The notes beneath the pieces were generated by a model. The model was not told where the DNA came from. It saw nothing but the letters and a program-made list of their open reading frames with translations, and did no database searches. Below, piece by piece: positions 5,499 through 43,729 of a stretch of DNA of 64,000 nt. This stretch comes from a phage. Location of the stretch: sequence record PZ445430.1. One strand, given 5' to 3'. Every line of letters begins with the position of its first letter. The first letter of the stretch is position 1. Position numbers and translations under genes: made by a program.

Positions 5499-6273
5499 TA
5501 TTATTTTTCTCCAATAGTTCTTTAATCGACAGGATTTCTATCCCATTCGTTTCGGCTTTCTTATAAGATGAGGAAGAACGTTTTGATTCATCCTCACAGA
5601 TTAGGTATTTGACGTCTTTGGTAACGGACTTCTTAACCGTATATCCTAGACTCTCTAAATAGTTTGTTGCATCCGTTCGATTTGCAAAATCTTGCAAAGA
5701 TCCGGTAATACAGACCGTGATTCCATTTGGCTGAGCAACTAAATCATCTGTAATGATGATATCAGCTTTAGCACCTCGAATACCAGTTGAGAATTTCCAC
5801 GGTAATTCAATAACATCCTTGCCTTGCGGGGAATTTAGCCAGGTTTTGTAATTTTCTCCAGCCTTGCCGTCAGCCTTCACATCGTGGAAGCTAGTGCAAT
5901 TTTGGGACAGTTTCTTTGCTGCAACCTCTCCAATAAGAGGAATTCCTAAAGAACCGAGAACTGAACCAAAGTCAATGTCTCCGCGAACCTTAGTATTTAA
6001 CTCGCTAATCAACTTAGCGGCAACCTTGCTACCCACAGCTCCGACCAAATCTTCTTCGGTCAGGTAAAACAGTTCTGAGATTTTAGTCAGCTCCAGCTTC
6101 TCAATAGTTTTCGGGCCAAAGCCCTTTAACTTCATTTTTGTGCAGAAGTTCTCGATTAACTTACTTGATTGCGCTGGACAGTTGGACTTATTCCTACAGA
6201 ATAATTGCCCGTTGACAAGATCTAGCTTAGAACCACAAGAGGGACATTGTGTTGGAATTTCGATTTTCATCAA
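5491..6273 (-). CDS. ligB: NAD-dependent DNA ligase, C-terminal subunit (zinc finger, HhH, BRCT-like)
   Basis: 260 aa; Cys4 cluster CPSCGSKL...CRNKSNCP typical of the LigA zinc finger; GFGPKTIEKL helix-hairpin-helix; AAGGAAG RBS. Confidence 0.7.
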   Translation of the reverse strand: MMKIEIPTQCPSCGSKLDLVNGQLFCRNKSNCPAQSSKLIENFCTKMKLKGFGPKTIEKLELTKISELFYLTEEDLVGAVGSKVAAKLISELNTKVRGDIDFGSVLGSLGIPLIGEVAAKKLSQNCTSFHDVKADGKAGENYKTWLNSPQGKDVIELPWKFSTGIRGAKADIIITDDLVAQPNGITVCITGSLQDFANRTDATNYLESLGYTVKKSVTKDVKYLICEDESKRSSSSYKKAETNGIEILSIKELLEKNNNV

Positions 6274-32419: not shown

Positions 32420-33272
32420 ATAAATTAGAGAACAGCGAGCCGATTACGCTGAGTGAGTTTAGTGATTCCTACTAGGATAGCTACTCCACTGAATAGAGTC
32501 GGTGAGTTGGAGACTAGTAAGTACTCTGAGAGAGGCTACGAGCTAACGCTTATTGCTATTGATAGGGAACTGAAAATCTGCGGAAAACTCGGGAGCTGTC
32601 CCGAAATCTCGTAAACTCTTCTCTAGTTTATGTTAGTGGGGTGTCGAACTGACTTATGTGATAACACTGCCGTCCTAGTATAAACGGTAATATCAAACCG
32701 TAACTGGTGGAAGATGCAGGTTCGAATCCTGCGGTCGGAAAGAATCAGATAACTCGGGCTTATACCGGATAAGCATTCGCTGCTGTAGTACATACTATGA
32801 CGGTTCAGGAGGTACGCCTCCTGATCAGTATTAGGTTAGAATCGAAACAGCTAAACCACGAGGAAACCTGACGGCCTCAACCAAACTCGGAACTCGGGAT
32901 CACTGCCTAGTGTGTACCCCGTTTAACCTGAGACTAGGCATCCAGCTTCGCATCGAAAATCGGAGGTGCGATTCTAACAGACCGCGTGAATATGAGAGTG
33001 GGAAACGCTGACATGAGAGATGTCACTAATGGTGCCCAATAGTACAGGTAATTCGCGATAATTCCTGTTGAGCGGCAGCAGTAGGCTGGGAGTCATGACC
33101 TAAGCCTAACCGAGTTCTTCACATACGGAGAACATAACCACAAAGTCACCCTGACTTAAACTGGAAGATATTGTCTGACGGAAGGGCTGCAGAGCTTAAT
33201 CTGAGGGGGCTGACCCTACCTACCGTCGGGTATCTTTAAGAGCTTTTATAAGAGTTCTTAAAAATACCTAAA
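32420..33272 (+). ncRNA. candidate large structured non-coding RNA (about 850 nt, promoter-driven, ORF-free)
   Basis: Promoter 32385-32413; no ORF of 60 aa or more on either strand; GC-richer than flanks; many local hairpins (e.g. GGAGGTACGCCTCC, CGGGAGCTGTCCCG); ends at tRNA-Arg. Confidence 0.35.
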
Positions 33273-39781: not shown

Positions 39782-39867
39782 TATAAATTTAGGGTCGTTG
39801 GCTGAACGGTTTAAGCGCCGGACTGTTAATCCGTATCCGCAAGGATAAAGTAGGTTCAACTCCTACA
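39782..39867 (+). tRNA. tRNA-Asn-like (anticodon GTT) with an extended variable arm
   Basis: Anticodon arm CGGA-CTGTTAA-TCCG; 15-nt variable region forming hairpin ATCC-GCAA-GGAT; T-arm GTAGG-TTCAACT-CCTAC; CCA. Confidence 0.5.
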
Positions 39868-39904
39868 CGGCCCGCCAATTTCACTAACAACTGAGGAAAT
39901 AGAT

Positions 39905-40099: not shown

Positions 40100-40176
40100 G
40101 CGATCGGGGCTGGCTTGGTAATGGTACTCCCCTGTCACGGGAGAGAATGTGGGTTCGAATCCCATCGGTCGCGCCA
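40100..40176 (+). tRNA. tRNA-Asp (anticodon GTC)
   Basis: Acceptor GCGATCG/CGGTCGC, anticodon stem CTCCC/GGGAG loop CTGTCAC, T-arm GTGGG-TTCGAAT-CCCAT, discriminator G, CCA. Confidence 0.7.
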
Positions 40177-40252
40177 ATTTTTGCAGGACGCTGGTATAGA
40201 TAACCACCGCGTGGGAAGTGTCTATATTTAGAGCACTGCAAAACATAATAAT

Positions 40253-40328
40253 ACATCCATAGCTCAATGGTTAGAGCTACCGCCTCTTAAGCGGAGGGTT
40301 CTAGGTTCAAGTCCTAGTGGGTGTACCA
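40253..40328 (+). tRNA. tRNA-Lys (anticodon CTT)
   Basis: Acceptor ACATCCA/TGGGTGT, D-arm GCTC-AATGGTTA-GAGC, anticodon loop CTCTTAA, T-arm CTAGG-TTCAAGT-CCTAG, CCA. Confidence 0.65.
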
Positions 40329-40541
40329 AACATCAGAGCAGCGTGATGTACTGCAAAGACCCAAAGTCCGGGGTGGACTTCTTGATTCAAAGGAGCAGGC
40401 ATTAATTATCATTCTAGCGTGGTGGAGAGGGGACACCAGCTTGCCGAGGGTAGAAGCTCGTTCGATTCGAGTGAAAGAATGGTTCTCGTAAATCCGCACA
40501 AGTGATAGCAGGTTCAAGTCCTGCCTAGATTGACTTATTAT

Positions 40542-40615
40542 GCGTTCGTAGTTAAAAGGTATAATTTTTGGTTGCCAACCAGAAGTTGAGGGTTCGATTC
40601 CCTCCGACCGCACCA
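40542..40615 (+). tRNA. tRNA-Gly (anticodon GCC)
   Basis: Acceptor GCGTTCG/CGACCGC (one mismatch), anticodon stem TTTGG/CCAGA loop TTGCCAA, T-arm GAGGG-TTCGATT-CCCTC, CCA. Confidence 0.6.
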
Positions 40616-40863
40616 AATTTAGGTTTCTGCTTCCTAGAGAACTGACTCCTAGATAAACAAGGCGATGAGTTTCCGGCCGGTTCTAGTCGCTGAAAATCCT
40701 CCCGACCAGGTAGGTGTAAGTAAACGAAAGTTTACTTATTAAGTAAGTCCGACACATCGGCGGGTGTGTTCTAGTACTTAAAGAAGGTCTCGCAAACTTT
40801 CTCGCTAGCATGAGTTCATAGCTCGGTGACTTACCTAATAAGTAAATTTATTAAAAAATGTAG

Positions 40864-40892
40864 TTGCTATTTAGCTTAATTCTCTGTATAAT
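40864..40892 (+). promoter_or_regulatory. sigma70-type promoter driving tRNA-Pro and the adjacent CAT tRNA
   Basis: TTGCTA, 17 bp, TATAAT. Confidence 0.6.
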
Positions 40893-40924
40893 ATATTTTA
40901 TAAAGTGAGTTAACAAAGAATATT

Positions 40925-41002
40925 CTCCGTGTAGCTCAGTTTGGCCAGAGCGTTTCGTTTGGGGCGATAGGGTCGGGGGTTCAAATCCTCCCACGGAGAC
41001 CA
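40925..41002 (+). tRNA. tRNA-Pro (anticodon TGG)
   Basis: Acceptor CTCCGTG/CACGGAG, D-arm GCTC...GAGC, anticodon loop TTTGGGG, T-loop TTCAAAT, CCA; about 30 nt after promoter 40864-40892. Confidence 0.7.
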
Positions 41003-42294: not shown

Positions 42295-42557
42295 ATTTAT
42301 ATAAATCGATGAGGAGAAATCCTCATCAAAGTTCACTAAGGTATTAGCTCGACCTAGGACTGGCTGCCAACAAGCACAGTTGCAATTAGACCCCTAATGG
42401 CGGGGGGATACTTTGCAATAAGTTCTAGATTAGTCCACTAGATTCAGCGGCAACTGAATAGTGTATCGGGTTTGTGAAGAGCGGTTATCCTCTACTGGCT
42501 AATGTCTGAGGGTAATACGCACACCGAGCTAATAGCCTTAGTAAACTTAAAGATTTT

Positions 42558-43054: not shown

Positions 43055-43267
43055 ATGATGAAAACTCCTATAACTGATATCTGGTTAGCTGTTAATACGT
43101 TAACTAAAGAGTATGTGTTTATAGAGTATGGTCAGAGGTATGACCAAAAGATGTATAATCTCATACTTCCAGTATCCGCTAATGAAGTTTATGATTTAAT
43201 CCTGAGATCTACGGAAGAGCAAATCGACTTGGTGACGAAAACCACTTGGAAAGTGGCTGACTTGTGA
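43055..43267 (+). CDS. doubtful small ORF overlapping tRNA-Ser
   Basis: 70 aa ORF whose last 55 nt overlap the tRNA at 43213-43305. Confidence 0.2.
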   Translation: MMKTPITDIWLAVNTLTKEYVFIEYGQRYDQKMYNLILPVSANEVYDLILRSTEEQIDLVTKTTWKVADL

Positions 43268-43305
43268 AAGCAGGCTTGAGAGTTCGAATCTCTCTTCTTC
43301 CGCCA
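43213..43305 (+). tRNA. tRNA-Ser (anticodon GGA), class II
   Basis: Acceptor GGAAGAG/TTCTTCC, anticodon loop TTGGAAA, long variable arm, T-arm GAGAG-TTCGAAT-CTCTC, discriminator G, CCA. Confidence 0.6.
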
Positions 43306-43319
43306 AACAAAATTTATAG

Positions 43320-43414
43320 GGTAGGTCAATCCAACGGCTGGCGCTGGACTCCGACTTGAAATCGGTTGATCGTAGTGATACGGTGTAAGGGTTCGATCCC
43401 CTTACCTACCCCCA
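43320..43414 (+). tRNA. tRNA-Ser (anticodon TGA), class II
   Basis: Acceptor GGTAGGT/ACCTACC, anticodon stem CCGA/TCGG loop CTTGAAA, long variable arm, T-arm AAGGG-TTCGATC-CCCTT, CCA. Confidence 0.6.
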
Positions 43415-43729
43415 AATCTTGAAGTATGCCGGAATCGGTAGACGGGGCTTCCTAAAGGGCGTAAGAGGAACATCCACTCCTCATAAGATACCCGAAAACG
43501 AGGCTGAGATAAATGGTCTATCTCGTGAAGGTTCAAGTCCTTCTGCTTCTTGATATTCAATGGCTCAAAGAGTAACGGTGCACCTTTCTAGAGAATTTTC
43601 TGGGCGAGAATCCAGAAGTAATCAACTAGTTGTTAGTGTGATGAGTTTCGGAGAGCCGCCACAATTGAAGTCTTTAGAATGGGTATCGCCCTTTAGCCCC
43701 TCCGAAAGGGATAACTAGAGATTTCAATT

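What the first reader, a model, noticed from the sequence alone, without database searches (positions are those of the whole stretch)
40329..40541. tRNA-like elements that do not fold into canonical tRNAs
Between tRNA-Lys(CTT) and tRNA-Gly(GCC) there are two perfect T-arm motifs (GCTCG-TTCGATT-CGAGT near 40456 and GCAGG-TTCAAGT-CCTGC near 40508), but I could find no 5' acceptor strand able to pair with the sequences following them. They may be degenerate tRNA genes, tRNA-derived stable RNAs or processing substrates.
Basis: seen in the sequence. Interest (0 to 1): 0.5.

Follow-up and report, generated by a model that had tools for sequence, protein, structure and literature searches.

The report
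Phage T5 RNA2: tRNA-framed stable RNA
The two orphan T-arms belong to one 125-nt gene, the counterpart of phage T5's long-annotated but functionally unexplained "RNA2". It is a tRNA cloverleaf whose anticodon loop is replaced by a conserved 55-nt module, so it is a known object, not two broken tRNAs.

Summary
The window is a T5-like phage, 100% identical here to Escherichia phage SuperGirl. Both T-arm motifs exist exactly as described, at 40456-40472 and 40508-40524. They are parts of one gene, 40410-40535 (+), 90% identical to the misc_RNA "rna2" of T5 and BF23, annotated as "tRNA-like RNA with unknown functions".

ATTCTAG (40411-17) pairs with CTAGATT (40525-31); it was missed because it lies about 110 nt upstream.

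Comparison of 26 homologues (14 lineages) shows a full tRNA frame: acceptor stem, D arm, 5-bp anticodon stem (70/70 pairs, every position covarying), 4-nt variable loop and T arm. The frame's sequence changes freely. A near-invariant 55-nt module (40444-40498) sits where the 7-nt anticodon loop should be. It holds the first T-arm, a 4-bp helix and 19 conserved unpaired bases.

ARAGORN and Rfam find nothing. Homologues occur in about 400 T5-like phages, in Acinetobacter T4-like phages, in environmental contigs and in a tRNA array on a 1.46-Mb contig.

Function is unknown. Most likely the tRNA frame provides processing and stability, and the module binds a partner. The first 81 bases (40329-40409) are a separate, non-conserved spacer.

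The parts
40410..40535 (+). RNA2 gene, the orthologue of T5/BF23 'rna2'; about 125-126 nt
   Evidence: 112/124 identical to T5 AY692264 misc_RNA rna2. Covariance model R1 scores it 148 bits, E 5e-35. Same neighbourhood as in T5/BF23: tRNA-Asp upstream; tRNA-Gly, RNAIV, promoter P13a and tRNA-Pro downstream.
40411..40417 (+). Acceptor stem, 5' strand (ATTCTAG)
   Evidence: Pairs with 40525-40531 in 6/7 positions here and 7/7 in T5. All 7 pairs show double changes across lineages.
40420..40438 (+). D arm (TGGTG / GAGAGGGGA / CACCA), loop rich in G
   Evidence: 46/46 stem pairs in 10 lineages with different sequences: TGGTT/AACCA, TGCCG/CGGCA, TGACT/AGTCA, AGCTC/GAGCT.
40439..40443 (+). P3, the anticodon-stem equivalent, 5' strand (GCTTG)
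   Evidence: Pairs with 40499-40503. 70/70 pairs in 14 lineages, with several pair types at every position.
40444..40498 (+). Conserved 55-nt module occupying the place of the anticodon loop
   Evidence: Nearly invariant from T5-like to Acinetobacter T4-like phages and metagenome contigs, while the surrounding frame changes completely.
40448..40451 (+). P4, 5' strand (GGGT)
   Evidence: Pairs with ATCC at 40492-40495. The inner pair is T-A in 7 lineages and C-G in 7. The G.U at the third pair is kept in 13/14.
40456..40472 (+). T-arm 1, an internal hairpin with a T-loop (GCTCG TTCGATT CGAGT)
   Evidence: The stem covaries: GCTGG/CCAGT, GATGG/CCATT, GTTGG/CCAAT, CCCCG/CGGGT. The loop is TTCRATT. 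The last T stays invariant even where it is unpaired.
40473..40491 (+). Conserved unpaired stretch GAAAGAATGGTTCTCGTAA
   Evidence: Invariant except for the first A (A/G) and the three bases before TAA in all 14 lineages.
40492..40495 (+). P4, 3' strand (ATCC)
   Evidence: See P4 5' strand.
40499..40503 (+). P3, 3' strand (CAAGT)
   Evidence: See P3 5' strand.
40504..40507 (+). Variable loop (GATA)
   Evidence: Two to five nt between P3 and T-arm 2 in the lineages examined.
40508..40524 (+). T-arm 2, the true T arm of the tRNA frame (GCAGG TTCAAGT CCTGC)
   Evidence: 66/67 stem pairs in 14 lineages, covarying. It is directly followed by the acceptor 3' strand.
40525..40531 (+). Acceptor stem, 3' strand (CTAGATT)
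40532..40535 (+). 3' tail G-ACT: discriminator-like G, no encoded CCA
   Evidence: T5 has GACA. AAS21/KEY (ACCA), vB_Kpn_3 (TCCA), OSY-STA and L079 (GCCA) encode CCA.
40329..40409 (+). Upstream spacer, not part of RNA2
   Evidence: Absent from T5 and from several Epseptimavirus relatives, where tRNA-Lys abuts RNA2. 95-97% identical to a segment in Klebsiella Sugarlandvirus phages in another tRNA context. No match to model R1.

Best explanation
Positions 40410-40535 encode the orthologue of bacteriophage T5/BF23 RNA2, a stable, roughly 125-nt tRNA-like RNA made from the phage's tRNA operon.

Architecture (shown by comparison): a complete tRNA cloverleaf frame with a 7-bp acceptor stem, D arm, 5-bp anticodon stem (P3), short variable loop and T arm. 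The 7-nt anticodon loop is replaced by a conserved 55-nt module made of:
- a short joiner and a 4-bp helix P4;
- a second T-arm-like hairpin;
- 19 invariant unpaired bases, GRAAGAAUGGUUCNYRUAA.

How it most likely works (inferred): it is co-transcribed with the neighbouring tRNAs. The tRNA frame lets host RNase P and 3' trimming enzymes cut it out, and gives it tRNA-like stability. The module, displayed at the end of the anticodon arm, is the working part and binds a conserved partner.

My preferred guess for the partner, at about 35%, is a host tRNA-binding or tRNA-targeting factor. RNA2 would then act as a decoy or sponge, in line with the accessory, anti-defence role now shown for other T5 tRNAs. 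It is not a decoding tRNA.
For: Identity:
- The window is 100% identical to phage SuperGirl.
- 40410-40534 is 112/124 identical to T5 rna2.
- BF23 record AJ604530 annotates the homologue as 'tRNA-like RNA with unknown functions'.

Frame:
- On the 26-sequence model alignment, 95.4% of cells pair, against 72% in shuffles and 29-44% when partners are slid. 24 of 31 pairs show double changes and P3 is 100% paired.
- The curated table of 14 lineages gives acceptor 65/70, D 46/46, P3 70/70, P4 50/56, T1 66/70 and T2 66/67.
- Ordinary tRNAs match model R1 weakly (30 bits or less) and true homologues at 62-157 bits, which shows that the frame is tRNA-like.
- Some frames are near-canonical, with TA (U8-A9) between the acceptor stem and D arm and a GG-containing D loop (L076, L084).

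Module under RNA-level selection on the + strand:
- Near-identity from Demerecviridae to Acinetobacter Straboviridae and metagenome contigs, while every frame helix changes sequence.
- Conserved G.U pairs would be C/A mismatches on the other strand.

Operon context:
- No promoter-like site between 39880 and 40860; the next one, at 40864-40892, corresponds to T5 P13a.
- Homologues always lie a few nt from a tRNA.

Accessory role: host defences that cut tRNAs, and rescue by T5 tRNAs, are documented (PMC11464382, PMC12916289, PMC11555353).
Against: - No tool result bears on the partner or on any activity. The decoy idea is inference only.
- Expression and the ends of the RNA rest on GenBank annotation of T5/BF23, not on data for this phage.
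- Single-sequence folding is no better than shuffles (z = 0.03). The model structure is 6 kcal/mol above the MFE.
- Inside the module, P4 competes with a local hairpin (ATGGT/ACCAT) that is perfect in phage ZZ1, so the module's fold is not settled.
- The Acinetobacter phage copies have a weak or absent acceptor stem; Acj133 has only 4 nt after T-arm 2. The frame is therefore not universally complete.
- The encoded 3' end is not CCA here.
Confidence: 0.8

Rival explanations
1. Two decayed tRNA genes or pseudogenes with no function of their own, merely carried along in the tRNA cluster.
For: tRNA finders fail. The module contains pieces that look like tRNA fragments: a T arm, and an anticodon-arm-like AUGGUUCUCGUAAAUCC. 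The origin may well be tRNA-derived.
Against: The module is almost invariant across phage families whose frame helices have diverged completely. All helices show compensatory changes. It is one transcription product, annotated as a stable RNA in T5/BF23.
Confidence: 0.03
2. An intron-containing tRNA: the 55-nt insert is removed, leaving a decoding tRNA.
For: The insert sits exactly in the anticodon loop of an otherwise good cloverleaf. The joiners CCGA plus GCA would add up to a 7-nt loop.
Against: At 55 nt the insert is far too short for a group I intron, and no Rfam intron model hits it. Conservation runs right up to P3, with no anticodon-loop signature: position 33 would be C, never U. T5 annotates the full 125-nt molecule as the product. 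No bacterial enzyme is known to remove such inserts (general knowledge).
Confidence: 0.04
3. A tmRNA-like or minigene RNA: the module is read by ribosomes as NUG-RAA-GAA-UGG-UUC-NYR-UAA (fMet-Lys/Glu-Glu-Trp-Phe-X-stop). This would tag, stall or sequester ribosomes or peptidyl-tRNA.
For: - In all 14 lineages the triplet at the end of T-arm 1 is GTG, TTG or ATG, never CTG.
- Its T stays invariant even where it is unpaired.
- The frame always ends in TAA.
- The only variable codon changes at the third position in ACG/ACA and GCG/GCA.
- A purine-rich GAGG/GGAGG lies upstream.
- Overall layout, a tRNA-like frame plus an internal mRNA-like piece, recalls tmRNA.
Against: - There is no synonymous variation in codons 2-5 across very distant lineages, so the constraint is on the RNA itself.
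- The start codon is half buried in the T-arm 1 stem.
- The GAGG is paired in P4.
- ARAGORN finds no tmRNA.
- The alanine identity pair G3.U70 is present only in Serratia phage Kamaji.
- There are no pseudoknots.
Confidence: 0.07
4. A protein-coding gene: SuperGirl annotates CDS bas29_0105 (56 aa) over window 40321-40491.
For: An ORF with a GTG start exists.
Against: It starts inside tRNA-Lys and ends in the middle of the conserved RNA. Its first half lies in the spacer that many relatives lack. Conservation follows RNA helices, not codons.
Confidence: 0.01

Closest known systems
Bacteriophage T5 / BF23 RNA2 (misc_RNA 'rna2' in AY692264, AY543070, NC_005859, AJ604530)
   Same: Direct orthologue: 90% identity over 124 nt, same length, same place in the tRNA region, same helices.
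   Different: A T.T mismatch in the acceptor stem, a D-arm pair swapped (TGGTG/CACCA against TGGTT/AACCA) and a P4 pair swapped (T-A against C-G). An extra 81-nt spacer and a tRNA-Lys(CTT) lie upstream instead of T5p065.
Bacteriophage T4 species 1 and 2 RNAs (rnaC, rnaD)
   Same: Small stable RNAs of unknown role encoded at the end of a phage tRNA cluster. rnaC ends in a T arm followed by an acceptor-like strand (PMC3014915).
   Different: No detectable homology: model R1 hits only T4 tRNA-Ser and tRNA-Leu in that locus, not rnaC or rnaD. The T4 RNAs have no conserved module in the anticodon loop.
tmRNA
   Same: A tRNA-like acceptor/T-arm domain carrying an internal functional segment instead of an anticodon.
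   Different: RNA2 keeps a D arm and a short anticodon stem. It has no pseudoknots, no alanine identity pair in most lineages and no ARAGORN or Rfam hit.
Engineered 'tRNA scaffold' RNAs (foreign RNA inserted in the anticodon stem for stable expression in E. coli; PMC3753655)
   Same: Same design: a tRNA body supplies processing and stability, and the payload replaces the anticodon loop.
   Different: That one is artificial. RNA2 is a natural case, and its payload is unidentified.
Bacterial Y RNAs of the YrlA type
   Same: A non-coding RNA with a tRNA-mimicking domain (recalled from the literature, not tested here beyond the absence of an Rfam hit).
   Different: In YrlA the RNA ends form the Ro-binding stem and the tRNA-like part is internal. 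In RNA2 the ends form the acceptor stem and the special module is internal. There is no Rfam match.

Membership tests
T5-type RNA2 | Sequence homology to the annotated rna2 of T5/BF23 | tested here: met
   112/124 identical to T5 rna2. blastn E 7e-39. Model R1 gives 148 bits.
T5-type RNA2 | Same genomic position in the tRNA region | tested here: met
   tRNA-Asp ... RNA2, tRNA-Gly(GCC), RNAIV-like segment, P13a-like promoter, tRNA-Pro, tRNA-Met, as in BF23/T5.
T5-type RNA2 | Accumulates as a discrete stable RNA in infected cells | not testable with these tools
   Rests on the T5/BF23 GenBank annotation only.
Canonical (decoding) tRNA | Acceptor stem, D arm, T arm | tested here: met
   All three are present and covarying.
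Canonical (decoding) tRNA | 7-nt anticodon loop with U33 closed by a 5-bp stem | tested here: not met
   The 5-bp stem P3 closes a 55-nt module. No U33-NNN-R37 pattern.
Canonical (decoding) tRNA | Recognised by tRNA models | tested here: not met
   ARAGORN finds none. Rfam tRNA scores 12.5 bits against a gathering score of 29.
tmRNA | Detected by tmRNA models; G3.U70; tag reading frame with pseudoknots | tested here: not met
   ARAGORN and Rfam are negative. G3.U70 occurs only in Kamaji. No pseudoknots found. The mini reading frame is inconclusive.
tRNA with group I intron | Intron with a group I core in the anticodon loop | tested here: not met
   The insert is 55 nt. No Rfam intron hit.
T4 rnaC / rnaD | Homology to the T4 species 1 or 2 RNAs | tested here: not met
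   Model R1 finds no match at E<=1 over T4 70908-71171 (L003 2909-3172).
Any Rfam 15 family | Match at or near the gathering score | tested here: not met

The most novel reading that the evidence does not exclude
The 55-nt module is a self-contained functional RNA domain that phages, and at least one bacterial tRNA array, mount on interchangeable tRNA bodies. It would work as an RNA decoy or sponge against host immunity: either a mimic that traps a tRNA-cleaving defence nuclease, or an aptamer that soaks up a small signalling molecule. That would be the first natural 'tRNA-scaffolded' anti-defence RNA. It would also give a function to a class of phage stable RNAs left unexplained since the 1970s-80s.
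Probability: 0.12. Interest if true: 0.85.

Novelty: already known. Interest (0 to 1): 0.35.

Why it matters
The gene itself is an old acquaintance: RNA2 of T5 and BF23. The finding therefore does not reveal a new element.

What this check adds:
- A covariation-supported architecture: a tRNA body with a conserved payload in place of the anticodon loop.
- Evidence that the same payload sits on unrelated tRNA bodies in T5-like phages, Acinetobacter T4-like phages, environmental contigs and a tRNA array on a 1.46-Mb contig.
- The observation that the family is absent from Rfam, and is overwritten by a probably false protein gene in the closest matching record (SuperGirl), with similar "hypothetical protein" calls over it in others.

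This makes the decades-old question of what the non-tRNA RNAs in phage tRNA clusters do directly testable, at a time when phage tRNAs are being recognised as counter-defence tools.

Tried and rejected
1. **Each T-arm with its own acceptor.** The pairing CATTCT/AGAATG behind T-arm 1 exists only in T5 and Epseptimavirus phages (partly in L079). The 5' strand covaries with the 3' end, not with the invariant AGAATG.
2. **A small hairpin 'X' before T-arm 1, from my hand-folding.** Dropped once P3 and P4 emerged from RNAalifold and from the Acinetobacter and metagenome sequences.
3. **RNAalifold's inner helices that open T-arm 1.** Contradicted by compensatory changes in T-arm 1.
4. **Local anticodon-like hairpin as a ThrRS or anticodon mimic.** The loop triplet is CGU, CAU or UGU, and 'position 33' is any base. 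The helix pairs in only 70.5% of cells.
5. **Antisense pairing of the unpaired stretch to E. coli 16S, 23S or 5S rRNA.** Weaker than for shuffled queries.
6. **Homology to T4 rnaC/rnaD.** None.
7. **Wider database scans.** The genome-contig scan used a pattern (GAAGAATGG...) that excludes the T5-type sequence and returned only chance hits. A looser viral scan gave 28 extra loci, none matching the model.
8. **Literature.** No paper in the searchable library discusses RNA2. The T5 genome paper and the Ksenzenko-group papers are not held.

Full report
**What the window is.** The region 40100-40950 is 100% identical to Escherichia phage SuperGirl (Epseptimavirus, Demerecviridae) and 80-99% identical to about 500 other T5-like phages. 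ARAGORN finds 27 tRNA genes between 33273 and 45655, all on the + strand. It finds none between tRNA-Lys(CTT) (40253-40328) and tRNA-Gly(GCC) (40542-40615).

**The observation.**
- Both motifs are present exactly as described: GCTCG-TTCGATT-CGAGT at 40456-40472 and GCAGG-TTCAAGT-CCTGC at 40508-40524.
- A strict T-arm pattern occurs 29 times on the + strand and never on the - strand, against 0.34 expected from shuffles. Six of the 29 lie outside ARAGORN's tRNAs, including these two.
- Rfam 15 has nothing here at E<=10 in the 15-kb scan. Scanned alone, the region gives a 12.5-bit partial tRNA match, against a gathering score of 29.
- So the motifs are real, non-random and not a canonical tRNA.

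**What it is.**
- A blastn search of 40329-40541 shows that conservation across T5-like phages is confined to query bases 82-206, that is window 40410-40534. In T5 (AY692264) this falls on a 125-nt misc_RNA named rna2, with 112/124 identity.
- The same feature is annotated in AY543070 and NC_005859.
- The neighbourhood matches too: tRNA-Gly(GCC), a segment homologous to T5 RNAIV, a promoter-like site at 40864-40892 corresponding to T5 P13a, then tRNA-Pro and tRNA-Met.
- The two T-arms therefore belong to one known gene.
T5 and several close relatives lack it; in those, tRNA-Lys directly abuts RNA2.

**Structure.** I collected homologues from the phage collection, IMG/VR and metagenomes. They cover:
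- Tequintavirus and Epseptimavirus phages;
- Serratia phages Kamaji and Slocum;
- Pantoea AAS21 and Erwinia KEY;
- Klebsiella vB_Kpn_3;
- four lineages of Acinetobacter T4-like phages (133, Acj9, AB1I1M-1, ZZ1);
- six environmental contigs.

RNAalifold on 20 T5-type sequences revealed a long-range helix that I had missed by hand. GCTTG (40439-43) pairs with CAAGT (40499-503). The divergent sequences confirm it with entirely different letters:

| Lineage | 5' strand / 3' strand |
|---|---|
| Kamaji | GCCTC / GAGGT |
| L076 | CCCAT / ATGGG |
| L079 | TCTCT / AGAGA |
| L084 | CCGCA / TGCGG |
| Acj9 | TCCCTA / TAGGGA |
| AB1I1M-1 | ACTCCG / CGGAGT |
| ZZ1 | TGCCG / CGGCG |
| Acj133 | GCGCTG / CAGTGC |

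That is 70 of 70 pairs in 14 lineages.

The other helices then complete a full cloverleaf. The 7-bp acceptor stem is ATTCTAG/CTAGATT here; AGACAAT/ATTGTCT, GACTTTG/CAAAGTC, ACTGACC/GGTCAGT and GGGTACT/GGTATCC elsewhere. Adding the D arm, a 4-nt variable loop and the second T-arm gives the frame.

On the 26-sequence model-based alignment, 95.4% of cells pair, against 72% in shuffles and 29-44% with slid partners. Twenty-four of 31 pairs show changes on both sides. That alignment is fitted to the model, but the MAFFT alignment gives the same picture for the T5-type set.

A covariance model built from the T5-type set scores true homologues at 62-157 bits and ordinary tRNAs at 30 bits or less. This is itself a sign that the frame is a tRNA.

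**The module.** Where a tRNA has seven anticodon-loop bases, RNA2 has 55 (40444-40498). In order, they are:
- a 4-nt joiner;
- GGGT, which pairs with ATCC 40 nt downstream (P4);
- AGAA;
- the first T-arm;
- the 19-nt stretch GAAAGAATGGTTCTCGTAA;
- the P4 3' strand;
- GCA.

P4's inner pair is T-A in seven lineages and C-G in the other seven, with no exception. T-arm 1's stem also covaries. The 19-nt stretch is invariant except for one A/G and the three bases before TAA.

So the frame evolves freely under structural constraint only, while the module is conserved in sequence. This holds from T5-like siphoviruses to Acinetobacter T4-like myoviruses and to a contig of 1.46 Mb. That contig carries 47 tRNA genes in 8.3 kb, and its size points to a cellular genome. 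Conserved G.U pairs show that selection acts on the + strand RNA.

**Open points of structure.**
- A local hairpin (ATGGT/ACCAT) competes with P4. It is perfect in ZZ1 but pairs in only 70.5% of cells overall.
- The Acinetobacter copies have a weak or missing acceptor stem. In phage 133 the next tRNA starts 4 nt after T-arm 2.
- Single-sequence thermodynamics are uninformative: z = 0.03, with the model 6 kcal/mol above the MFE.

**Mechanism.**

Shown:
- one gene, with a tRNA frame and a conserved payload;
- embedded in tRNA operons, with no promoter-like site between 39880 and 40860.

Taken from annotation: a stable RNA of about 125 nt in T5/BF23.

Inferred:
- The frame recruits RNase P and 3' trimming and confers stability. 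This is exactly how engineered tRNA scaffolds work (PMC3753655).
- The module binds a partner.

Several points suggest an accessory role:
- This part of T5-like genomes holds accessory genes, and the content around RNA2 varies between relatives.
- Many host defences are now known to cut tRNAs.
- T5 tRNAs are known to counteract such defences (PMC11464382, PMC11555353, PMC12916289).

I therefore think a decoy or sponge for a tRNA-binding or tRNA-targeting host factor is the most likely role, at roughly one in three. Nothing here tests it.

A ribosome-read mini-frame (NUG-RAA-GAA-UGG-UUC-NYR-UAA) is a curious regularity. The absence of any synonymous change in four codons across very distant lineages speaks for RNA-level constraint. 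The unpaired stretch has no notable complementarity to E. coli rRNA.

**Comparison with what is known.**
- The element is a member of the T5 RNA2 family by homology and synteny.
- It fails the defining tests for a decoding tRNA, for tmRNA, for a group I intron-bearing tRNA and for T4 rnaC/rnaD.
- No Rfam family covers it. No paper in the searchable library discusses it.

**Verdict.**
- As a discovery it is not new.
- As a problem it remains open, and is now better defined.

Noticed in passing
window 43213-43301 and 43320-43410: Two long-arm tRNA genes that ARAGORN missed. Rfam's tRNA-Sec model scores them 26.5 and 38.3 bits, and SuperGirl annotates two tRNA-Ser here.
   Followed up: partly
window 43421-43551: Another over-long tRNA-like element of about 130 nt. 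It has an orphan T-arm GAAGG-TTCAAGT-CCTTC at 43527, an acceptor-like pairing GAAGTA/TGCTTC, and a D arm resembling tRNA-Leu or tRNA-Tyr. No tool calls it and no annotation was seen.
   Followed up: no
window 32669-32740: A weak tRNA-like sequence: Rfam tRNA scores 29.3 bits, just at the gathering score. It has a perfect T-arm at 32716 and is not called by ARAGORN.
   Followed up: no
window 40616-40924: The spacer after tRNA-Gly contains a segment (40748-40799) that matches T5 'RNAIV', a stable RNA of unknown function, at 43/51. The whole spacer folds better than shuffles (z = -2.0).
   Followed up: partly
window 42342-42537: Homologue of T5 'RNA2H' (152/163 identical). This is a structured RNA of about 170-195 nt closed by a long helix GGTATTAGCTCG/CGAGCTAATAGCC, just downstream of a promoter-like region. 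It is unrelated in sequence to RNA2, and its function is unknown.
   Followed up: partly
window 39792-39877: tRNA-Asn(GTT) is 86 nt long with a long variable arm, which is unusual for Asn. BF23 instead has a 78-nt tRNA-Asn followed by a 74-nt 'RNA3' annotated as tRNA-like.
   Followed up: no
window 40329-40408: The spacer between tRNA-Lys and RNA2 is missing from T5 and from several Epseptimavirus relatives. Yet it is 95-97% identical to a segment of Klebsiella Sugarlandvirus phages, where it lies between tRNA-Lys and tRNA-Phe. It looks like a small unit that moves between tRNA clusters.
   Followed up: partly
window 40321-40491 (SuperGirl CDS bas29_0105): The public record annotates a 56-aa hypothetical protein that starts inside tRNA-Lys and ends in the middle of RNA2. 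It is almost certainly a false gene call. Several other phage records also list 'hypothetical protein' under the RNA2 match.
   Followed up: partly
L078 1-8283 (metagenome contig Ga0308158_10000004, 1.46 Mb): An array of 47 tRNA genes in 8.3 kb, with an RNA2-like gene at 6022-6141 directly after tRNA-Gly(GCC). In several phages the RNA2 gene also adjoins a tRNA-Gly.
   Followed up: partly
L031 583-707 (Klebsiella phage vB_Kpn_3): This copy looks chimeric. It has a T5-type module, but mismatched D-arm strands (CGACT/AACCA) and a mismatch in T-arm 2. Its acceptor stem (TACGGGG/TCCCGTA) is unlike that of T5. Other Sugarlandvirus phages gave no blastn match to RNA2.
   Followed up: no
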